Assembly (NCBI GenBank): GCA_019058315.1
Contig: JAHPZH010000004.1
Location: 1-64,000, forward strand
From: Candidatus Helarchaeota archaeon
GTDB lineage: Archaea; Asgardarchaeota; Lokiarchaeia; Helarchaeales; RDOG01
Length of the DNA stretch: 64,000 nucleotides
Direction of reading: 5' to 3'
The translations under genes were made by a program, and so were the position numbers. The notes beneath the pieces are model-generated. The model was given only the letters and a program-made list of their open reading frames with translations, made no database searches and was not told the origin of the DNA. Below are positions 1-12,612 of this stretch, piece by piece. Positions within the stretch are counted from its first letter, which is position 1; every line of letters begins with the position of its first letter.

Positions 1-90
1 TAAAATAATTTTAATACCTGTAAAAGATATTTCTGAAATTGAATCAAAAAATAAAAAATGAGGTTTATAATATCTCGTTATCCTCAAAAT

Positions 91-1966: not shown

Positions 1967-4900
1967 TTGGAGAGAAAATTAGTGGATGAGGAATTAATAA
2001 GTAAAAAAGAGGAAAATATTGAAGATCTCGTTAAAAATATCAGGTTAAAGGCTGAAAAAGCCAAAACTGAAGAAGATATTAAAATGGCTATAGAAAAAAT
2101 CTTTGCCAATTATCTTCCTTCAAAAGGAATCAAAATTGACCCTAAATACGAAGTCACTTTATTAAAAGGTAGAGCAGATGCAGTATATCGAAGAGTAATA
2201 ATTGATTATAAAAAACCACATACTCTTGAGCAAGAAAATGTAAAAAATGATGTTATCAAAAAAATTAAAGATTATATTCAGAGTATTACTAAGGGGAAAA
2301 TCTCTCGAAAATTTGTTGGAATAGCTCTTGATGGTTTCAATATTATTTTTATTAGACCACCAAGGCAAATACTTAAGATGAAAGAAAAAAAGCCAAAAAC
2401 ACAACTTACATTAGATGGCACATTAAATAACTCAAAGACGATAGAAGAAAATTGGAAAATTTCCAAAGTTCTTCCAGTAAATAAAGAAACCATGGAAAGG
2501 TTATTTTTATATTTTCGTTCTCTATCTTTTAAAATTCTATCACCTGAGAATTTAGCTTATGATTTTGGTCATAAAAGCAAAATTGCCAATGAAGTTATTG
2601 GGATTTTTAATGAAAAATTGACTAAAATACAACATCCAAAAATTGAAGCTCTTTATATAGAATGGAAAAGGATTTTTGGTATAATATATGGTGAAGAAAT
2701 TTCTAAAGCTAAGAATTATCTTAAAGAATTAGCTGATTTTTACGGATTTCAAACAGAAGATTTAAGGAAATTGCTATTTTCGATTCATTCTTATTATGCT
2801 CTGTTAATGAAAATGATGGCTGCTGAAGTTCTATCTTTACAGACTGGCAGTTATTTTAGGTCTCTGGTTTCAGAAATTTCATTAATTTCAACTCTGGATT
2901 TAAAAGATAAAATGAGAGATCTAGAGGAAAAAGGTGGATTTTTTAAAAGATATGGAATATCAAATTTTTTAGAAGGTGATTTTTTTGGTTGGTATATAAA
3001 CTGTTATGATGAAGATATTGCCAATTGTATCAAAAAAATAGCTAAATGTTTATCGCGTTATGAGCCTGCTACCACTTCTTTAGAACCTGAATACACTAAG
3101 GATCTATTGAAAAAATTATACCAATACTTATTACCTAATGAATTAAGGCGTGCTTTAGGAGAGTTCTACACGCCTGATTGGCTAGCAGAACATTTGTTGG
3201 ATAGAGTTGGATATCAAGGTGAAATAAAAAAAAGAATTTTAGATCCCGCTTGTGGTTCGGGAACTTTTTTATCAAAAATCATTGCCAAAATTAAAGGAGT
3301 GGTTGAAGACAGTCCTGAAATTTATAATGATAAGAGAATAGTTTTGAATTCTATCCTTGAAAATGTTATCGGATTTGATATTAATCCTCTCGCTGTTATA
3401 TCGTCTAGGACTAATTATATTTTAGCTTTGGGAGGAGATTTAATTCGATATAGAAGTGGAGATATTGAAATTCCTGTATATCAATGTGATTCAATCCTAA
3501 TTTCGAGAAAATATTCGGTACTTTATGGTAAAAGGCATAAGATCAAAACATCTATTGGGGACTTTTATTTCCCTTCGGAATTAGCTGAAAAAAAGTATAT
3601 TGAAAAGATAGTAAGTAAATTAGAAGAAAATATTCCAAAGAAGATAGACTTAGAAATATTTCTAGATTCAGTAAAAAATGATTTGCCTCAAGAAATCTAC
3701 GAATTATGTATAAGTGATTTGTCTAATTTATATAAAGAACTAATAAAACTAGAAAAACAAAATAAAGATGAAATTTGGGCTAGGATTATTAAAAATTCAT
3801 TTGCCCCATTATTTGTAGGAAAATTTGATTATGTAATTGGTAATCCCCCTTGGATAAGATGGGGGCTATTATCAAAAGATTATCGCTCAGCAACGTTAGA
3901 AATGTGGAAAGATTACGGTCTTTTTTCTCTTAAAGGTATGGAGGCAAGATTAGGCTCAGGTGAAAAGGATTTATCAATGCTTTTCACTTACGCTTGTACA
4001 GATTTCTATTTGAAAGACGGAGGGACGCTAGGATTTCTTATTACTCAAGAAGTAATCAAAGCTAAGGGTGCAGGTGAAGGATTTAGAAAATTTAGGTTAG
4101 GAGAAAAAGGAAAACCCCTAAAAGTAATTGAATTTCAAGATTTAGTTACAATTCAGCCTTTTGAAGGAGCTAGTAATAAAACAGGCATGATAATTCTCCA
4201 AAAAGGAAGACCCACTGAATATCCTATCCGTTATATATTATGGGATAAAAAAGAGACCGTCCATCCTGATGCATCTTTGTCCGAAATATTTCATATTACG
4301 GACAGAAAAAAACTAATTGCACAACCAGTTGGTAATAAAAACACGGATCAATGGCTAACGATTGAAAAAAAATTTGTATCTATTATTTCTAAAATGAGGG
4401 GAAAATCGTTTTATAAGGCAATACGTGGAGCATCCATTGAACCTTATGGTGTTTATTATCTAGAAATAGTTTTAGTTCGTCCTGATGGTCTATTAATAAT
4501 AAAAAATTTACCTGAATTAGGTAGGAAAAAAATAAAAAAAGTTGAAGAAGTGATTGAACCGGATTTAGTTTTTCCGGCATTGAGAGGCAGAGATATTAAA
4601 AGATGGGGACATGATATTGATGTGTATACCATTATATCTCAAGATCCAGAGAAAAGAGAAGGGTATGATGAAAAATGGATGAATACTAACCTTCCCAAGA
4701 CTTATAATTATTTATTGGGATTTAAAGAGGATTTATTAAAAAGAAAAGGATATTGGAAATATTTCAGTAAAAAGATTAAAAGTAAAAAGAAATTATCAGA
4801 TAGTGAGTTAAAGAAAAAATATGGGAATTATCGCTATATTGGAAAACGTACTAAAAAGGTTGGAGATAGTTACCATGTCTATCAAGTTAATGACTCGGCT

Positions 4901-5374
4901 TTTTATACAATGTTCAATATAAGCAATGACTCATTCGCACCTTATAGGGTTGTATGGAAAAGAATGAGTAATGATTTAACAGCTACAGTAATATCTACGA
5001 CTAACACTCCTTATGGAAAAAAGCCAATTATTCCTACAGATACTACTGCCTTATTACCATTTAAAGAAAAAGATGAGGCGTATTATGTATGTGCCCTTTT
5101 AAACTCGACTTTAAGTAGTTTTTATATTAGAGCTTTTTCATCAGCTGGAAGAGGTTTTGGAGCACCTTCAATCTTAAAATTTGTAAAAATTCCTCAATAT
5201 GATAATAAAAATACCAATCATAAAAAATTGGCTGATTTATCGAAACTTGCTCATAAACAGGTAAAAGAAAATAAACTCGATAAATTGAAAAAAACAGAAA
5301 TTGAAATTGATGATATAACTCGACAAATATGGAATATAAGCAAAGTTGAATTGGGAAAAATTTTGAAAAGTTAA
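1967..5374 (+). CDS. Type IIG (REase-MTase-TRD fusion) restriction-modification enzyme, N6-adenine methyltransferase
   Basis: GEFYTP, motif I ILDPACGSG, motif IV NPPW, N-terminal GRAD..IIDYK nuclease-like motif, C-terminal TRD (LLNS). Confidence 0.9.
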   Translation: MERKLVDEELISKKEENIEDLVKNIRLKAEKAKTEEDIKMAIEKIFANYLPSKGIKIDPKYEVTLLKGRADAVYRRVIIDYKKPHTLEQENVKNDVIKKIKDYIQSITKGKISRKFVGIALDGFNIIFIRPPRQILKMKEKKPKTQLTLDGTLNNSKTIEENWKISKVLPVNKETMERLFLYFRSLSFKILSPENLAYDFGHKSKIANEVIGIFNEKLTKIQHPKIEALYIEWKRIFGIIYGEEISKAKNYLKELADFYGFQTEDLRKLLFSIHSYYALLMKMMAAEVLSLQTGSYFRSLVSEISLISTLDLKDKMRDLEEKGGFFKRYGISNFLEGDFFGWYINCYDEDIANCIKKIAKCLSRYEPATTSLEPEYTKDLLKKLYQYLLPNELRRALGEFYTPDWLAEHLLDRVGYQGEIKKRILDPACGSGTFLSKIIAKIKGVVEDSPEIYNDKRIVLNSILENVIGFDINPLAVISSRTNYILALGGDLIRYRSGDIEIPVYQCDSILISRKYSVLYGKRHKIKTSIGDFYFPSELAEKKYIEKIVSKLEENIPKKIDLEIFLDSVKNDLPQEIYELCISDLSNLYKELIKLEKQNKDEIWARIIKNSFAPLFVGKFDYVIGNPPWIRWGLLSKDYRSATLEMWKDYGLFSLKGMEARLGSGEKDLSMLFTYACTDFYLKDGGTLGFLITQEVIKAKGAGEGFRKFRLGEKGKPLKVIEFQDLVTIQPFEGASNKTGMIILQKGRPTEYPIRYILWDKKETVHPDASLSEIFHITDRKKLIAQPVGNKNTDQWLTIEKKFVSIISKMRGKSFYKAIRGASIEPYGVYYLEIVLVRPDGLLIIKNLPELGRKKIKKVEEVIEPDLVFPALRGRDIKRWGHDIDVYTIISQDPEKREGYDEKWMNTNLPKTYNYLLGFKEDLLKRKGYWKYFSKKIKSKKKLSDSELKKKYGNYRYIGKRTKKVGDSYHVYQVNDSAFYTMFNISNDSFAPYRVVWKRMSNDLTATVISTTNTPYGKKPIIPTDTTALLPFKEKDEAYYVCALLNSTLSSFYIRAFSSAGRGFGAPSILKFVKIPQYDNKNTNHKKLADLSKLAHKQVKENKLDKLKKTEIEIDDITRQIWNISKVELGKILKS

Positions 5375-5446: not shown

Positions 5447-6799
5447 ATGGGTTTTACTGCGAGAGAAAAATTTATGTTTAAGCAGTATAAATACGATGTT
5501 GCATTATCATTTGCGACTGAAGATAGAAAAATTGTGGAAGAAATTGCAAATGAATTAAGAAATAATAGATTAAAAGTCTTTTACGACGATTTTTTAAAGG
5601 ATAAACTTTTAGGTAAGGATTTATACGAATATTTTAAAGATTCTTATGGGAAAAACACAAAATTTGTAATTATTTTCATTTCTAAACATTACCCATTAAA
5701 AGATTGGACTAATTTTGAATTTGAAATTGCCCGTGGAGAAGCAAAACAAAGGAAAGAAGAATTTATTCTACCTATAAGATTAGATGATACCCCCCTATTT
5801 GGTTTAAAACCTACTATAGGTTATATTAAATATCATAGCACAAACCTAATGGAAATAATTGATATTATTGTTAGAAAAGTTTATGAATTAGATAGAGATT
5901 TCTATCAAAAACATCTAGAAGTCCAAGATTTTAGCATTATTTCTGGTACTGTGACATCTTATTCATTTTGTATTATTAAGTTTAGTCCAACTAGTAATTT
6001 GAGGGTCACATTTGATTCTAAATATTCTAGTACAAATTGCATTGACATGGGTATTAAAGTAATTTTAGATGGTATTAATGATTTTATTAATGGTAATTTA
6101 AGGTTAACTAATTATACATGCGATCCGACATTATTGTCAAGGGAAATGAATCTTTATAGTCTGAAAGAAGTAAAAATAACATTAAATGACTCATTTAGTG
6201 CAATGGCTTTAGGACCAGATGTAATAGGAGCTTCTATAAGGGCCATGATCTATTGCCTAAATGAATTTTTTACGTTGAAATTTAAAGATCAAAATCTTTT
6301 AATAAATTTCTTGAAAAATGGATTAAAATTTAGTAGGGGTAAGCAAAAAGCTTCAATGGATTTGAAACCAGTGCAAAAATATTTCAAACAAAATATAGAA
6401 GAACTAAAGATTGGTCCGTATATTAAAATAAATGAATTAATAATCAATACGAGTATCTTTCACGCTATTGCCACCGTCAGTCTTGAAATTTCGCAAAAGG
6501 GTGAAAAACTTACTATTACATCCATTATAAAGGATATTGGAGCTATTCATGCAGTAATAGGGGCTATCCTTAAGCCATTTAAAGGTAAAGTCGAGTTAAA
6601 CAAATTTAATTTAGGTAAAATCAGTGTCATTGATACAAGTGAAATTCAAGCTAAAGTATCATTGGAATTAAGAGATTCCGATAAAAAAACCTATCAAACA
6701 AATGCTATTCACGAAGATGTTATCATGGCTACAGTTATAGCTATTTTAAAGGGTCTAAATAACATTTATTCTTCAAATATGACATCTAATTTAATATAA
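5447..6799 (+). CDS. TIR domain protein fused to two LeuA-type allosteric (LeuA_dimer-like) domains
   Basis: YDVALSFATEDR..VFYD..FISK.Y..KDWTNFE with catalytic Glu; C-terminal repeats ending GPDVIGASIRAMIYCLN and HEDVIMATVIAILKGLN; GAIHAV resembles GPVDAL. Confidence 0.75.
   Translation: MGFTAREKFMFKQYKYDVALSFATEDRKIVEEIANELRNNRLKVFYDDFLKDKLLGKDLYEYFKDSYGKNTKFVIIFISKHYPLKDWTNFEFEIARGEAKQRKEEFILPIRLDDTPLFGLKPTIGYIKYHSTNLMEIIDIIVRKVYELDRDFYQKHLEVQDFSIISGTVTSYSFCIIKFSPTSNLRVTFDSKYSSTNCIDMGIKVILDGINDFINGNLRLTNYTCDPTLLSREMNLYSLKEVKITLNDSFSAMALGPDVIGASIRAMIYCLNEFFTLKFKDQNLLINFLKNGLKFSRGKQKASMDLKPVQKYFKQNIEELKIGPYIKINELIINTSIFHAIATVSLEISQKGEKLTITSIIKDIGAIHAVIGAILKPFKGKVELNKFNLGKISVIDTSEIQAKVSLELRDSDKKTYQTNAIHEDVIMATVIAILKGLNNIYSSNMTSNLI
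5651..5811. repeat. Left arm of perfect 161-bp inverted repeat (partner 7811-7971)
   Basis: aaaaacacaaaatttg...ggtttaaaacc is the exact reverse complement of 7811-7971; encodes the TIR C-terminal half. Confidence 0.95.
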
Positions 6800-6915
6800 T
6801 CCTAGAGATTTTCTTCTTTTTTTTAATTCAATTATAGATAATGGATTTATACATTAAAAATTAGAAAATCAGACATTATACTTTTCTAAAATCATGCATT
6901 GGTATTTTCTTATTG

Positions 6916-8148
6916 CTAAGTATTTGATTTCAAAACACTTGAGACTTCTTCTTTAACTTCATCAAATGCGAGTTGATAGAATTCAAATATCTCACATAAA
7001 GGACTAAATAATTTCATGAGTATTTCTATTAATTTTTGACTTTTATTTGTAATATTTATTATTAAATTGGAAGTGATAGAATCTTGGTGAGCAGTGTGGG
7101 GAATAAATGGAGAAGCTATTGCATCAAGATGGACATGTGCAATTTTACGATTTTTTAACCCCTCCCAAGTAATACTAAAAGCAATTTCTCTTGAGTCAGG
7201 TGAAAGTTTTTTAGTAAAACGATATGAATGAAGTAGACATTCAGTAATTCTATGTATTGGAAAAGTGATATCAAAGGTACTCCCTGGTTTTATTTCAGAA
7301 GAACTATCCTCAAAATATCCTTGTAATAAAAACATTTTTCCCTTTGGGGACGCACGCCAAAAATCAGAATGTCTAGGATCTTCATCCAACCCATATAACC
7401 ATGATTCAATATGCTCCTCATAAGGATGCGGTCTAAATTCAGCTATGGGACTAATTTTCCAAGGTGGCCAGCTACTCCCCTCTAATTCTATTTTTTCTAA
7501 AATTTCTAATAAGTTTTTGAGAGAAAGTGGTTCAAAATTACCAATTATTGAATAAGCAACATACCATGCTCCATATTGAAAGGGAGTCTGTTTTTTATCA
7601 GGTAATTTCTCTTTAATTAACTGTTGCCATCTTGTTTTTGATTTCAGAGTCCAAAATTGAAGCATTTGCAATTCTAATTCTTTAGAAATATGAATATTTC
7701 TTTTATTTCTAATTTGATTTTCAGTAAAACTCTTTGATGTTTTTAATTTCTTTTCAATTATATCAATAATCTTTTCCTTACCTTCTTTATAATCTAAATA
7801 ACCTACAGTGGGTTTTAAACCAAATAGGGGGGTATCATCTAATCTTATAGGTAGAATAAATTCTTCTTTCCTTTGTTTTGCTTCTCCACGGGCAATTTCA
7901 AATTCAAAATTAGTCCAATCTTTTAATGGGTAATGTTTAGAAATGAAAATAATTACAAATTTTGTGTTTTTAGCATAAGCCTCTTCAAAATATTTTGATA
8001 AGTCTTTTCCCCAAATTGTAACCTGATAAAATTCGTCATAAAAAATTTTTAAATTTCGCTTCTTTAATTCAAATGCAATCTCTTCTACAATTTTCCTGTC
8101 TTCACCAGCGAAAGATAATGCAGCATCAAATTCTAATTTAGGAACCAT
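6916..8148 (-). CDS. TIR domain protein with uncharacterised C-terminal alpha/beta domain
   Basis: FDAALSFAGEDR..IFYD..FISK..WTNFE; C-terminal WPPW and DFWRASP.G.MF..GY.ED motifs. Confidence 0.8.
   Translation of the reverse strand: MVPKLEFDAALSFAGEDRKIVEEIAFELKKRNLKIFYDEFYQVTIWGKDLSKYFEEAYAKNTKFVIIFISKHYPLKDWTNFEFEIARGEAKQRKEEFILPIRLDDTPLFGLKPTVGYLDYKEGKEKIIDIIEKKLKTSKSFTENQIRNKRNIHISKELELQMLQFWTLKSKTRWQQLIKEKLPDKKQTPFQYGAWYVAYSIIGNFEPLSLKNLLEILEKIELEGSSWPPWKISPIAEFRPHPYEEHIESWLYGLDEDPRHSDFWRASPKGKMFLLQGYFEDSSSEIKPGSTFDITFPIHRITECLLHSYRFTKKLSPDSREIAFSITWEGLKNRKIAHVHLDAIASPFIPHTAHQDSITSNLIINITNKSQKLIEILMKLFSPLCEIFEFYQLAFDEVKEEVSSVLKSNT
7811..7971. repeat. Right arm of perfect 161-bp inverted repeat (partner 5651-5811)
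   Basis: Direct base-by-base comparison; flanks diverge immediately. Confidence 0.95.
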
Positions 8149-8196
8149 TAATTATCACATTATATCCTTTTTTTATATAGAAGTCCCTCTTATTCA

Positions 8197-11100
8197 TTAT
8201 TCTAAAGTTATAAAGTCGAATAAATTTCTTAAATAATTCATATATATGCCCCAGTACACTTTATAATTTGTATCATTAATTATTGGTAGAAATGTATAAA
8301 TTATCCATTCCTCTCCTGCTACTATGACATACCATACATATTTTTTCATGTTAATAATATTTTTTAAAGTCTCCCAACCCCAATTAAAAGCTAGATCTGG
8401 ATTAATTTCGTATACTTCGTTTATTTTTTGATAATGTGCTTCTCTATCTGTTGGAGCATATAATTTTGCAAGAGCTAATCGCTCCTGAATATTATATTTC
8501 TCTTCCAATTCCTCATTTTCTTTAAAAATCTTTTTAAAAAAATTAGTAAGAACATAATTCAAAGGATATTTTAAGAATCCCCCTAAATAGGGTCTATCTT
8601 TAGTTAAATAATTAAATAGATTAATCCATTTTTGTACATCCTTATCAATTGAATAGACTTTATACAAAAGAGCTCTAAGAGATATTTTTGCATTCCTTTG
8701 TTCACTAATTTTTTTTACTTCAATAATAAATTCCTCTGGGGGCATTAATTTTTTATATAACTTTTTCACTATCGATTCATCAATTATAATTTCCGTTTTT
8801 TTAACAGGTTCTATATCAGAATTATAAATTTCCGAAAAATAAGTCAGCTTTTTCTTAATTTCCAAAAACAAATCATGATTCCAATCCTCTATAATATGTA
8901 GAAAGCATTCTTTCAAAAAATTAATAGAATTTTTCTCAGTATTATCACTGACAAAATTTAATATTTCAACTATCCAATGAATTTCCCTAATGAATTGTTC
9001 ATCTTGTTCATCAAAGAATTTAATAATGTTCTTTAGTAAGTGTTTTAAAAAAAATAACTGATAATCCTTTCTCGGTCCAATTCTAAATGAAATTTTCTTA
9101 TAAAAATCTTCGAATTTCGGAATATTCTGATCTACATACAATTGATGAGTTATCCTTATTGATTGGGAAGCTTTCAAACTGACTAAAAACGTATCATTAT
9201 TCTCCCATGGTTCAGTAATATTAAGGATTGCTGACAGATTTTTCTGGAGTATTTCCTTTATTAGATCATCTAGAACATCATTTTTAAAGATCTGTTTCAA
9301 TCTTATACAAATCTGAAGTTGAGTTAAGAAACTTTGGAATTTTCCTTTTCCTATGTAAAATTTTTGTTTTAATGTTTCTAAAAAAAAATCCTTAATAGAT
9401 TCACTTAATAATCCTATTTGATCAATAAATATTGCCATAAAATCTTTGAAATAATAATACCAATGTAAATTAATACTGGGTTCGCAATCCATTAAATTTA
9501 GAATGTTTGATATCACATTCTTCATTTGTTCTTCGTCAATTTCACCCATACTTAAAATAGCAAAATCTCTAATATTTAATTCCCAACGAAAATAATAATG
9601 TTCTTTTTCCATTAATAAATGATCCAAATTATTAATTTGATAATTAGAATTGAAAATATCAAGCAATTTTTTATCATCTTGAATTGGCCAAATGTCTAAA
9701 AGATTTTTGTAAAGGTTTATCCGACTTAGAATTTTACTTTTCGGATCACCATAAAGGGAAAAGCGCATCCGTGGACCGTCTTTAAATAAAAGTCTAACAT
9801 CATTATCCGAAATTTTATCTGGATGAAAGAATAAATTATATTTCCTCCTTGTATTTGTAAAATCATTATCCCATAAAACGTGATAAAATGGAAATTGATC
9901 TAAAAAATCAGTAATTAGATCTTCTTCTTTGGCATATGATTCATAGATTTTTAATTGTAAAATTACACCAAATGGAGTCATTCTGTCATATTGAGGCCAA
10001 TGACTGGCGAAATTATTGGTATCTTTATTCTTATATCTGAAATGTCTAAAACTATATACCTTCCAACCACCTTTTTCTATAATTTTTTCTAAATATCTAT
10101 AGACATGAGCCAAATCAGTAAAACGGTTATTCTCAATTAAATATTCTCCTAAAACATAAATTGCACCAAAAAAATCAGAATTTAGATAATATGGACCTCT
10201 TATTTTATGATTAAAAAGTTCGCTTAAAATAAGGTCAAATGAGTTTAAAATAGAGGTAATACTTTCAAATTTAATAGCGATATATGTCCAATCATCAATA
10301 TATTTAAGCAGATCTTGATGGAAAAAATGATTTGGGATTGTGGCTTTATTTTGATTATAAAAATCTTTTAGGAATGGCACTAATCCTGTAATATTATTTA
10401 TATTTAGAAGCTGAATAATAAGATCTAATTTTAAATTATAATCTAAGTTTTGCGAATGTAGAGTCGTAATGAGTACATAAAAGCAGGTTCCGAAATCATT
10501 TATAAAAAAATTGAGTAATTCACTTAAATATCCAAAATTCTCTTCATAAATATTGTTTCTTATCTCAAATTCCCCTTTTAAAAAGAAAAATTCGAAAAAT
10601 TTTTTAAAATCTTTAATTTCATGGAGGAAATTCAGAATTTCTGTCAGATCTTCTAAAATATCGCACACGGGTCGAAATTGGATAAATTGATTCAAAAAAT
10701 ATGAACGATCTAATTTTAAAATATCATCTTTATTATCTGAATATAATAAATAATACAATTTATACCAATTATGAACTCCACTTGAGTTGTAGTTATCACA
10801 ATAATCATTTAATATGGAATAATATTCTTTAGATTTATTCTCAGAAAATATTTGTAAATATTTTGCAGATTTTTCAAATAAAAAATCTTTGAAAGTATTA
10901 TATTTAAATAAGTAAAGATTTTCTATTTTTAAAAATAAAAAATCAAAATTATTAAAAAAACGCTCAATTTTTTTAATTTCAGGCCAAATAATCAACCAAT
11001 TTACATCAATTGGACCTATTAACCTGGAAATAAGTCCAGCTATTTTTAAATATTCTTCATTAGAATTGAAATTAAACTTTTGCCAGTATGCATCATATAA

Positions 11101-12612
11101 TTTATATATATTCTCTTCAAAATCAATAAATTCCTCTAATTTCTCTTCAAAATTTTGTAAATCCGCTAAATTAGGATATTTATTACAAATGATATTGAGA
11201 TACTGCGGATTACCCCCTGTCTTTTCAAGTATTTGGGAAATTTGAATTATACCCATTTTTCTGGAGTATTTTTTAAATAAAAACTCTTCAACCTGCTCAT
11301 AATAAAATGGCTCAACTTCAAATTTAGATATCAAATCTGTATAAGAATCCAAATCTCTGAACCAAGATATATCATTGAAATGTTGTCCAGATAGCAGGAT
11401 AATAACATTATCGGGGAGTTGTCTAGGAGTTGGTAATTTTTCTAAAAACGGTTGCGTAGCTCTCTGCATTCTTAAGACATGATCTATTCCGTCAATAATG
11501 ACTAAAACCTTAGTATTTCTTTCACTGGTAAGGTTACTTAAAGAATTAATTAATTCATTAAACTTTTCTTCCTCACTCAAATTAAAAGATGATTCTCCTA
11601 AAAAATTTGAAAATTGAATGTTCATTTCTTTAAAAAAAATGTCTGATTCTCCTCGAACCTTCAATGTATAATGTCGATCATCCCTAAAACATAGATATCT
11701 AAAAATAATATATTTGGGAAATGCAGTTTCATTAATTTCTGCTTGAAGAAATGTTGATTTCCCTAATCCGGCACCCCCTTCTAAAAAAAGGTACCCTTTA
11801 TTTAATTTATCAATCGAGCTTCTAATATTATTTGATAATTCTCCCCTTTTTATGTATTCATTCTCATTATAAGGAAAATCATGTAACAAAGGATCATAAT
11901 AATATCCTATATCTTGAAGAAATTGTTCAATTGTAACAGAATTTTTAATTGAATTCTTTTTATTTAAAAACCAATTATAATATTTCCTTTTTTTCGTTTT
12001 TTCATAAACAGATCGTTCTTTATAGAATTTAACATTAAATTCAAAATTTAATTTCTTTAAAAAATCAAATAGTATTTGTTCTTCACAATTAAGATGGTCC
12101 TTAAATAGTTTAAACCATTCGTTTAATATTCCTGGTTGTAAAAAATTATCTTCACTTATTTCATTATTTTTAAAGGATTGCCAATATTGCTTTATAAATT
12201 TTTGTAGTGATATTTTTTCGTTTTGGTATATTGGCATATATTTTGTGGATCTGGCAGATTGACTAGGACTTTTACTCGTCACATAATAAATTTTAAATTT
12301 ATAATTTGGAAATTCTTTCTTTATTTGCTTAAACGTAATAAATAATTTTTCTACTACAGATTTTTTACTATTATTTCCAAAAAGATCGGATAAATTACAA
12401 GTAAAATCTTCTTCAGCACCTTTTGCTTGAATACAAACTAATAATCTTCCTTTAAGTAAAAATCCTATATCATCAGCACTACCAAGTTTCTCATTATTTA
12501 ATAAAATTTCAATAATTGAATTTTCATTAAGATAAGATTCAAGATAATCGCTAAATACAGTTGCTTCAAATCGCCTTCCAATATTTACACTTCTATCACC
12601 TCTAGCACTCAA
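8197..12612 (-). CDS. STAND/NACHT-like NTPase with N-terminal PD-(D/E)xK nuclease-like domain (Avs-like defence protein)
   Basis: ADDIGF..CIQAK; Walker A GGAGLGKST; Walker B VIIDGIDH; GGNPQY; long helical C-terminal region. Confidence 0.75.
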   Translation of the reverse strand: MSARGDRSVNIGRRFEATVFSDYLESYLNENSIIEILLNNEKLGSADDIGFLLKGRLLVCIQAKGAEEDFTCNLSDLFGNNSKKSVVEKLFITFKQIKKEFPNYKFKIYYVTSKSPSQSARSTKYMPIYQNEKISLQKFIKQYWQSFKNNEISEDNFLQPGILNEWFKLFKDHLNCEEQILFDFLKKLNFEFNVKFYKERSVYEKTKKRKYYNWFLNKKNSIKNSVTIEQFLQDIGYYYDPLLHDFPYNENEYIKRGELSNNIRSSIDKLNKGYLFLEGGAGLGKSTFLQAEINETAFPKYIIFRYLCFRDDRHYTLKVRGESDIFFKEMNIQFSNFLGESSFNLSEEEKFNELINSLSNLTSERNTKVLVIIDGIDHVLRMQRATQPFLEKLPTPRQLPDNVIILLSGQHFNDISWFRDLDSYTDLISKFEVEPFYYEQVEEFLFKKYSRKMGIIQISQILEKTGGNPQYLNIICNKYPNLADLQNFEEKLEEFIDFEENIYKLYDAYWQKFNFNSNEEYLKIAGLISRLIGPIDVNWLIIWPEIKKIERFFNNFDFLFLKIENLYLFKYNTFKDFLFEKSAKYLQIFSENKSKEYYSILNDYCDNYNSSGVHNWYKLYYLLYSDNKDDILKLDRSYFLNQFIQFRPVCDILEDLTEILNFLHEIKDFKKFFEFFFLKGEFEIRNNIYEENFGYLSELLNFFINDFGTCFYVLITTLHSQNLDYNLKLDLIIQLLNINNITGLVPFLKDFYNQNKATIPNHFFHQDLLKYIDDWTYIAIKFESITSILNSFDLILSELFNHKIRGPYYLNSDFFGAIYVLGEYLIENNRFTDLAHVYRYLEKIIEKGGWKVYSFRHFRYKNKDTNNFASHWPQYDRMTPFGVILQLKIYESYAKEEDLITDFLDQFPFYHVLWDNDFTNTRRKYNLFFHPDKISDNDVRLLFKDGPRMRFSLYGDPKSKILSRINLYKNLLDIWPIQDDKKLLDIFNSNYQINNLDHLLMEKEHYYFRWELNIRDFAILSMGEIDEEQMKNVISNILNLMDCEPSINLHWYYYFKDFMAIFIDQIGLLSESIKDFFLETLKQKFYIGKGKFQSFLTQLQICIRLKQIFKNDVLDDLIKEILQKNLSAILNITEPWENNDTFLVSLKASQSIRITHQLYVDQNIPKFEDFYKKISFRIGPRKDYQLFFLKHLLKNIIKFFDEQDEQFIREIHWIVEILNFVSDNTEKNSINFLKECFLHIIEDWNHDLFLEIKKKLTYFSEIYNSDIEPVKKTEIIIDESIVKKLYKKLMPPEEFIIEVKKISEQRNAKISLRALLYKVYSIDKDVQKWINLFNYLTKDRPYLGGFLKYPLNYVLTNFFKKIFKENEELEEKYNIQERLALAKLYAPTDREAHYQKINEVYEINPDLAFNWGWETLKNIINMKKYVWYVIVAGEEWIIYTFLPIINDTNYKVYWGIYMNYLRNLFDFITLE

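What the first reader, a model, noticed from the sequence alone, without database searches (positions are those of the whole stretch)
5651..7971. Perfect 161-bp inverted repeat inside two convergent TIR genes: candidate invertible sensor-swapping switch
Seen: 5651-5811 is the exact reverse complement of 7811-7971, synonymous sites included, while the TIR N-terminal halves are clearly diverged. The repeat ends near the TIR boundary and is in the same reading frame in both genes. A crossover would invert the ~2-kb 5812-7810 segment and give two intact chimeric ORFs. This exchanges the C-terminal domains between the TIR downstream of the R-M gene and the TIR downstream of the STAND gene. Inference: shufflon-like phase variation of immune sensors, or recent gene conversion that keeps the TIR catalytic and assembly surface identical. 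No invertase is visible in the window.
Basis: partly seen in the sequence, partly recalled or inferred. Interest (0 to 1): 0.8.

Follow-up and report, generated by a model that had tools for sequence, protein, structure and literature searches.

The report
Gene-conversion tract between two TIR genes
Two tail-to-tail immune (TIR) genes of an uncultured sediment archaeon share a letter-perfect 161-base stretch in mirror orientation; it is best read as a recent copy-and-paste repair event between old paralogues, and nothing shows that it acts as a dedicated DNA switch.

Summary
Window 5651-5811 is the exact reverse complement of 7811-7971 (161/161). It lies in frame in two convergent TIR genes, TIR-A (5447-6799, +) and TIR-B (6916-8148, -). 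The tract sits inside about 400 nt of old, diverged TIR homology: 69.5% identity on the 5' side, with synonymous sites near saturation. The divergence jumps from about 30% to 0% with no gradient. A run this long is not chance (P about 6e-16).

An independent k=31 assembly of the likely source sample gives one 161-nt node at about twice the flank depth. So there are two near-identical copies. The same graph cannot give the orientation of the 2-kb middle segment.

The marks of a programmed switch are missing:
- No serine or IS110/Piv recombinase was found in the 94%-complete genome.
- The only two tyrosine recombinases lie on other contigs.
- Both genes are complete, so a flip would not change which C-terminal domains are made.
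- No inverted junction was seen.
- No relative carries the pair.

Best reading is a recent gene-conversion tract; occasional inversion is possible but unshown. This scan has reached the same reading for similar repeats in other genomes.

The parts
5651..5811 (+). Left copy of the perfect 161-nt repeat. It encodes TIR-A aa 69-122, the stretch from the 'KFVIIFIS' strand to 'LFGLKP', including the DWTNFEFE motif.
   Evidence: Exact reverse complement of 7811-7971. The motif aligns with the 'KDWTNYELD' motif of the AbTIR NADase.
7811..7971 (-). Right copy of the perfect 161-nt repeat. It encodes TIR-B aa 60-113.
   Evidence: In Logan's contigs of the likely source run it is one 161-nt node at depth 36.8, about twice the flanks.
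5474..5650 (+). Diverged 5' TIR homology of TIR-A, paired with 7972-8148 of TIR-B.
   Evidence: 123 of 177 identical (69.5%); pS 0.60, pN 0.24. There are 6-12 mismatches in every 30-nt bin right up to the tract edge.
5812..5870 (+). Diverged 3' TIR homology beyond the tract, paired with about 7755-7810. It holds a 3-nt indel.
   Evidence: Gapped alignment A3; 16 of 22 identical in the ungapped part.
5812..7810 (.). The 1,999-nt segment between the repeat copies. It holds the C-terminal domains of both genes and the 116-nt spacer. A crossover would invert it.
   Evidence: In-silico inversion gives intact ORFs of 419 and 441 aa. In one search it is a separate 2,059-nt contig whose orientation the graph cannot fix.
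5447..6799 (+). TIR-A, 450 aa: a TIR_2 domain plus a LeuA_dimer-like C-terminal domain.
   Evidence: Pfam TIR_2 4.2e-15 and LeuA_dimer 8.7e-16. The C-terminus is 25-36% identical to the roughly 540-aa LeuA-type synthases of relatives. No other homologue was found in 1.8 billion representatives.
6916..8148 (-). TIR-B, 410 aa: a TIR_2 domain plus a conserved C-terminal module of unknown function.
   Evidence: Pfam TIR_2 3.2e-15. The C-terminal family has an invariant HSDFWRASP..G.MFLL.GY.ED block. The same fold is joined to AlbA_2, HTH_3, DUF4062, TIR, SEFIR and PNP_UDP_1 N-termini.
1967..5374 (+). Type IIG restriction-modification gene upstream of TIR-A (72-nt gap).
   Evidence: PADLOC REase_MTase_IIG 8e-292; Pfam Eco57I and N6_Mtase.
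8197..12612 (-). STAND NTPase (Avs1b-like) upstream of TIR-B (48-nt gap).
   Evidence: PADLOC Avs1b 9.9e-21; weak NACHT and nSTAND3 hits.

Best explanation
The 161-nt perfect inverted repeat is a recent, non-reciprocal gene-conversion tract. By inference it arose when a break in one gene was repaired using the other as template, by homologous recombination. The two genes are old, inverted paralogues that lie 2 kb apart in a defence island of an uncultured archaeon, probably an Asgard archaeon. The event overwrote the catalytic-core half of one TIR domain with the other's sequence. The N-terminal TIR halves and the unrelated C-terminal modules were left untouched.

Shown:
- The copies are identical.
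- The identity is far beyond chance.
- The tract has abrupt edges and lies inside diverged homology.
- There are two copies at about twice the flank depth.
- No dedicated recombinase was found.
- Both genes are complete.

Inferred:
- The mechanism.
- That the tract now offers enough identity for an occasional crossover. Such a crossover would flip 5812-7810 and give two working chimeras. This would be a neutral by-product, not a regulated switch.
For: 1. Perfect identity over 161 nt covers about 32 synonymous sites. The adjacent flank has pS = 0.60, so about 19 silent differences would be expected; none is seen.
2. In 200,000 permutations the longest identical run was 79; P is about 6e-16.
3. 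Both tract ends lie inside homologous TIR sequence. Mismatch density is flat at 20-44% per 30-nt bin up to the edge. This is the contiguous-block signature of conversion tracts described for tufA/tufB (PMC5485169).
4. PF00239 and PF01548 were not found in the genome. PF00589 hits lie only on contigs C5 and C7. No recombinase lies in window 1-29 kb.
5. Both genes have a start codon and a complete TIR, so a swap leaves the set of expressed C-terminal modules unchanged. Lack of gene/pseudogene asymmetry removes the strongest predictor of programmed inversions. Only 128 of 6,372 comparable CDS pairs with inverted repeats varied within a species (PMC9881135).
6. These are the only two TIRs of this subfamily in the genome, and this is the only near-perfect inverted repeat within 50 kb.
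7. The assembler carried contig C1 through the repeat. A 668-nt contig of a 90-95% relative from another study spans the right copy in the window's arrangement. No joint was reported.
Against: - Orientation heterogeneity was never really tested. Only contigs were available, and the graph is symmetric at an inverted repeat.
- Conversion between sequences only about 70% identical should be rare. A locus held identical by repeated recombination would look the same.
- Coding inverted repeats of 85 and 333 bp in the pneumococcal spnIII locus invert often without the site-specific recombinase and without RecA (PMC6620402). So the missing invertase does not exclude frequent inversion.
- No relative with the locus was found, so donor and recipient, and the age of the event, are unknown.
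Confidence: 0.7

Rival explanations
1. The repeat is the crossover site of a working inversion system, driven either by a recombinase or by homology. The population would hold both orientations and so exchange the two C-terminal modules between the TIR head and promoter next to the R-M gene and those next to the STAND gene.
For: - The repeat is in frame, and inversion gives intact 419- and 441-aa chimeras.
- The repeat is long, the genes are only 116 nt apart, and they lie tail-to-tail with the repeat near the 5' ends. These attributes are enriched in real gene-altering inversions (PMC9881135).
- Long coding repeats can invert without a dedicated recombinase (PMC6620402).
- The locus is a defence island, where diversification is expected.
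Against: - No invertase was found nearby, and none of the serine or IS110 type was found in the genome.
- Both genes are complete, so inversion yields no new repertoire and no on/off change.
- No inverted junction was seen in four runs.
- The assembler resolved one orientation.
- Two other TIR relatives inspected stand alone, and the pair was not found in 60 related genomes or in the collections scanned.
Confidence: 0.15
2. The perfect identity is partly an assembly product. The two copies are very similar but not identical, and bubble popping in de Bruijn graph assemblers wrote one consensus into both places. A metagenomic strain mixture could have done the same.
For: - The genome is a short-read graph assembly; contig ends share 55-mers.
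- Logan's contigs also drop minor variants.
- Node depth is 36.8, slightly below the sum of the flanks (39-41), which would allow one collapsed difference.
- Contamination is estimated at 6.6%.
Against: - Two assemblers with different k give the same 161-nt boundaries.
- No alternative letters appear in the repeat in run X1.
- Even with one or two hidden differences, the contrast with 30% divergence next door would stand, and so would the conversion reading.
Confidence: 0.07
3. The identity is held by long-term concerted evolution, that is, repeated conversion over a long time, because identical catalytic halves are useful, for instance in mixed TIR assemblies.
For: - The tract covers the motif that aligns with the AbTIR catalytic motif.
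- In the relative in run X2, the left copy differs from the window at 5649 and 5671. A comparison of its two copies could therefore test this.
Against: - Selection on the protein does not explain identical silent sites.
- Divergence shows no gradient towards the tract edges, which slow erosion of a homogenised zone would give.
- The sequence of the X2 right copy was not available.
Confidence: 0.08

Closest known systems
Gene conversion and inversion between the inverted tufA/tufB genes of Salmonella enterica (PMC5485169 for the tract properties; that the genes are inverted and can recombine to invert the chromosome segment is from my own knowledge)
   Same: Two paralogous genes in inverted orientation on one chromosome exchange contiguous blocks of sequence by general recombination, with no dedicated recombinase. 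A crossover between them would invert the DNA in between.
   Different: The tuf genes are near-identical along their whole length and lie far apart. Here only 161 nt of about 400 nt of about 70%-identical homology is converted. The genes are 2 kb apart, the host is an archaeon, and the rest of each protein is unrelated.
Phase-variable type I R-M hsdS invertons, such as pneumococcal spnIII/ivr (PMC6620402, PMC4948785; survey in PMC9881135)
   Same: Inverted repeats of 15-333 bp lie inside coding sequence, in frame, between convergent genes. Inversion swaps C-terminal specificity modules. The longer repeats can recombine without the site-specific recombinase.
   Different: Those loci have one expressed gene plus silent, 5'-truncated cassettes, usually a tyrosine recombinase in the locus, and demonstrated mixed populations. 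Here both genes are complete, no recombinase is nearby, and no second orientation was seen.
Bacterial TIR NADase proteins (AbTIR of Acinetobacter baumannii, PDB 7uwg and 8g83; Thoeris ThsB)
   Same: The TIR_2 domain aligns to AbTIR at E = 1e-6, including the 'KDWTN(Y/F)E' motif. There are weak PADLOC hits to ThsB and PDC-S66.
   Different: The C-terminal modules (LeuA_dimer-like, and an uncharacterised module shared with AlbA_2, HTH, SEFIR and PNP_UDP_1 proteins) are not those of AbTIR or ThsB. No ThsA partner was seen. Enzymatic activity is untested.

Membership tests
Gene-conversion tract between paralogues (concerted evolution) | A contiguous block of identity, silent sites included, inside otherwise diverged homologous sequence | tested here: met
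   161 of 161 identical, against 69.5% in the flank with pS 0.60.
Gene-conversion tract between paralogues (concerted evolution) | The block is longer than chance allows, given the divergence | tested here: met
   The longest run in 200,000 permutations was 79; P is about 6e-16.
Gene-conversion tract between paralogues (concerted evolution) | Both tract ends lie inside homologous sequence | tested here: met
   Homology runs 177 nt to the 5' side and about 60 nt to the 3' side, with a 3-nt indel.
Gene-conversion tract between paralogues (concerted evolution) | Non-reciprocal transfer, shown by identifying donor and recipient against an outgroup | not testable with these tools
   No relative with either full gene was found.
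Gene-altering programmed inversion (shufflon / hsdS-type inverton) | In-frame inverted repeats in two coding sequences, such that inversion gives intact genes | tested here: met
   In-silico inversion gives ORFs of 419 and 441 aa.
Gene-altering programmed inversion (shufflon / hsdS-type inverton) | A site-specific recombinase in or beside the locus | tested here: not met
   None in window 1-29 kb. PF00239 and PF01548 were not found in the 94%-complete genome. PF00589 hits lie only on C5 and C7.
Gene-altering programmed inversion (shufflon / hsdS-type inverton) | Asymmetry: one expressed gene plus 5'-truncated silent cassette(s) | tested here: not met
   Both genes have start codons and complete TIR domains, and each follows a large defence gene. 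The criterion is from PMC9881135.
Gene-altering programmed inversion (shufflon / hsdS-type inverton) | Both orientations present within a population or among close strains | tested here: inconclusive
   Only contigs could be laid. The graph breaks at the repeat, so orientation is unreadable. No joint was reported. One relative's contig shows the window's arrangement at the right junction.
TIR-domain NADase defence proteins | A TIR fold with the conserved catalytic glutamate motif | tested here: met
   Pfam TIR_2 above the cut-off in both genes. 'KDWTNFEFE' aligns with 'KDWTNYELD' of AbTIR. That this glutamate is catalytic in AbTIR is from my own knowledge.
TIR-domain NADase defence proteins | NAD+ cleavage and anti-virus activity | not testable with these tools
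   This needs an enzyme assay and an infection assay.

The most novel reading that the evidence does not exclude
The 161-nt repeat supports frequent inversion without a recombinase in an Asgard-type archaeon, so cells in one population carry either arrangement. The two sensor-like C-terminal modules would then be re-paired with different TIR heads, promoters and operon partners (R-M or STAND). That would be a defence-gene shuffling device of a kind described so far only for bacterial specificity subunits.
Probability: 0.12. Interest if true: 0.7.

Novelty: new member of a known kind. Interest (0 to 1): 0.3.

Why it matters
As read here, this is a clean, datable example of gene conversion between immune paralogues in an archaeal defence island. 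It is useful as a marker of recombination in an uncultured lineage but is not surprising.

It would matter more if raw reads showed both orientations. That would be the first gene-altering inversion reported for TIR immune genes and for an Asgard-type archaeon. It would also show that the exchange of sensor modules between immune effectors can run on plain homology.

Tried and rejected
**Reads.** Only Logan contigs were served. In the likely source run X1 the graph breaks exactly at the repeat: contigs end at 5680, span 5782-7840, and restart at 7942, with a 161-nt node between. Orientation therefore cannot be read. Runs X3 and X4 hold nothing useful. Run X2 holds fragments of a 90-95% relative, but the contig sequences are not returned, so I could not compare its two copies.

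**Relatives.**
- A DNA search of 40 related genomes found only chance hits.
- Protein searches of 60 related genomes found the TIR-B tail only in the own genome, and the TIR-A tail only as housekeeping LeuA-type genes.
- The search for related loci in metagenome and genome contigs found nothing.
- A degenerate DNA pattern for DWTNFEFEIARGEA in metagenome contigs gave 0 matches.
- A search for shorter proteins, aimed at the X2 fragments, found none above 59% identity.

**Structure.**
- The single-sequence model of TIR-A failed (pLDDT 32).
- The model of the TIR-B tail (pLDDT 72) has no convincing solved match: no Foldseek hit at E of 0.001 or better, and best VIA Z of 5.7.
- BLASTP found no internal repeat in the TIR-A tail, so 'tandem LeuA domains' is not confirmed.
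- Protein-atlas feature searches gave no usable lead.
- phmmer of the TIR-A tail against 1.8 billion representatives gave only itself and one weak hit.

**Step not run.** Looking up the two hypothetical chimeric proteins by exact sequence in public collections.

**Readings rejected.**
- Transposon terminal repeats: the repeat is coding TIR sequence and has only two copies in the genome.
- Protein-level selection as the cause of identity: the silent sites are identical too.

Full report
**Observation.** Window 5651-5811 equals the reverse complement of 7811-7971 at all 161 positions. A search of the whole 5.8-Mb genome finds exactly these two copies. The tract is the core of a 365-nt inverted repeat, 5469-5833 / 7789-8153, at 83%.

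It lies in two convergent ORFs, TIR-A (5447-6799, +, 450 aa) and TIR-B (6916-8148, -, 410 aa). It is in the same frame in both and encodes the same 54 residues, TIR-A 69-122 and TIR-B 60-113. Both proteins carry a Pfam TIR_2 domain above the cut-off. The shared stretch includes 'KDWTNFEFE', which aligns with 'KDWTNYELD' of the solved AbTIR NADase. That this motif holds the catalytic glutamate is from my own knowledge.

**More than chance.**
- The 5' TIR flank (5474-5650) is only 69.5% identical, with pS = 0.60 (dS about 1.2) and pN = 0.24. The paralogues are therefore old.
- The tract holds about 32 synonymous sites and no difference.
- With the 60 mismatches of the 360 aligned sites shuffled 200,000 times, the longest identical run was 79. 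The analytical P for 161 is about 6e-16.
- Mismatch density is flat, at 6-12 per 30 nt, up to the tract's left edge. It resumes at once on the right, at 6 of 22.
- A gapped alignment shows that diverged TIR homology continues about 60 nt past the tract, with a 3-nt indel. It lies inside it.

**Is the identity real?** The genome is a short-read graph assembly; contig ends share 55-mers. Logan's independent k=31 contigs of the likely source run (X1) break exactly at the repeat. One contig ends at 5680, a 2,059-nt contig covers 5782-7840, a 161-nt contig represents the repeat at depth 36.8, and the next contig begins at 7942. The flanks have depth 19-21.

So two copies collapse into one node. They are identical, or nearly so, in the reads. 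A single popped difference cannot be excluded. The same result means the orientation of the middle segment cannot be read from contigs, because both walks through the graph are valid. No joint was reported in any of the four runs.

A run from another study (X2, marine sediment) holds fragments 90-95% identical to the locus. One 668-nt contig spans the right copy (7430-8094) in the window's arrangement. A 175-nt contig covers the left edge and differs from the window at 5649 and 5671. The sequences themselves were not available.

**Context.**
- The organism is an archaeon. The SSU fragment scores 752 bits on the archaeal model against 574 on the bacterial one.
- It is probably an Asgard archaeon. 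This rests on the named TIR relatives and on first-stage reader notes about this window, which I did not check.
- The locus is a defence island: a nitrilase of the DRT-associated type; a type IIG R-M gene (1967-5374) 72 nt upstream of TIR-A; an Avs1b-like STAND gene (8197-12612) 48 nt upstream of TIR-B; an LRR-HEPN gene; and a Upx-like gene. HEPN and PD-(D/E)XK candidates lie further on.
- The TIR-A tail is LeuA_dimer-like (Pfam 8.7e-16) and resembles the regulatory domain of relatives' own LeuA-type synthases. It has no other detectable homologue.
- The TIR-B tail belongs to a conserved family. Its predicted fold (pLDDT 72) recurs behind AlbA_2, HTH_3, DUF4062, TIR, SEFIR and PNP_UDP_1 heads. 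That distribution suits a sensor or regulatory module of conflict systems. It has no convincing solved counterpart.

**Tests of the switch idea.** Inverting 5812-7810 in silico gives two intact chimeras of 419 and 441 aa, so the geometry is right. Against a programmed switch:
1. No serine recombinase and no IS110/Piv-type enzyme were found in the 94%-complete genome. The only two tyrosine recombinases are on contigs C5 and C7. None lies in the first 29 kb of the window.
2. Both genes are complete, with start codons. TIR-B has a TATA-like box about 25-30 nt upstream of its start. A flip would therefore exchange tails between two expressed genes and would not bring a silent cassette into use. 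In the survey of Milman et al., gene/pseudogene asymmetry is the strongest predictor of programmed gene-altering inversions. Only 128 of 6,372 CDS pairs with suitable inverted repeats varied within a species (PMC9881135).
3. The pair is not a recurring architecture. These are the only two TIRs of this subfamily in the genome. No relative among 60 genomes or in the collections scanned has the pair. Two close TIR relatives inspected stand alone.
4. This is the only near-perfect inverted repeat within 50 kb anywhere in the genome, so there is no sign of a genome-wide inversion system.

In favour of keeping the idea alive: the pneumococcal spnIII locus inverts on its 85- and 333-bp coding repeats without its recombinase and without RecA (PMC6620402). 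A missing invertase is therefore not decisive.

**Conclusion.** The pattern is a contiguous perfect block with abrupt ends inside saturated paralogous divergence. That is the signature of a recent gene-conversion tract, like those mapped in tufA/tufB, where over 96% of tracts were contiguous (PMC5485169).

I put 0.7 on a recent conversion event with no dedicated function. Occasional homology-driven inversion is a plausible but unshown by-product. I put about 0.15 on a truly heterogeneous, frequently inverting locus. The rest I divide between assembly collapse and long-term concerted evolution.

Similar repeats elsewhere in this scan were read the same way. I did not test those cases.

Noticed in passing
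window 6916-7746; G000:C11 (L015:56-1405 and L015:1690-2865): The C-terminal module of TIR-B is a conserved, unnamed domain family with an invariant HSDFWRASP block. Its predicted fold is attached to AlbA_2, HTH_3, DUF4062, TIR, SEFIR and PNP_UDP_1 heads in other organisms. The same genome has two tandem AlbA_2 genes on C11, one of which carries this module at 35% identity. It looks like a portable sensor or regulatory module of defence proteins with no solved structure.
   Followed up: partly
window 5864-6796: The TIR-A tail carries a LeuA allosteric-domain homologue, 25-36% identical to the LeuA-type synthases of related archaea. The TIR + LeuA_dimer architecture found no second example in 5.8 billion clustered proteins or in 1.8 billion representatives.
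   Followed up: partly
window 1-55; G000 contig ends: C1 starts with the same 55-mer as C9, and C4, C6 and C11 share end 55-mers. The genome is therefore a k=55 graph assembly, and the window begins at a graph branch only 5.6 kb from the repeat.
   Followed up: no
window 8165-8180 (- strand): A TATA-like box (CTATATAAAAAAA) lies about 25-30 nt upstream of the TIR-B start. TIR-B may therefore have its own promoter and a near-leaderless mRNA, and need not be co-transcribed with the STAND gene. The TIR-B start aligns with an internal ATG (5474) of TIR-A.
   Followed up: no
window 5558-8141, run X2: A marine-sediment metagenome from a different study holds fragments 90-95% identical to both TIR genes, with two variants at 7238-7459. 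Related strains carrying this locus therefore exist and could settle the question once their contigs or reads are read.
   Followed up: partly
G000:C2:345634-346750: This is the second-best close inverted repeat in the genome: 233 nt at 87%, arms 653 nt apart, longest exact run 59 nt. I did not examine it.
   Followed up: no
window 91-20472: A dense defence island: DRT-type nitrilase, type IIG R-M, two TIR genes, an Avs1b-like STAND, LRR-HEPN (Hypoth_Ymh), a Upx-like 1254-aa gene, and weak PD-(D/E)XK and HEPN candidates.
   Followed up: partly
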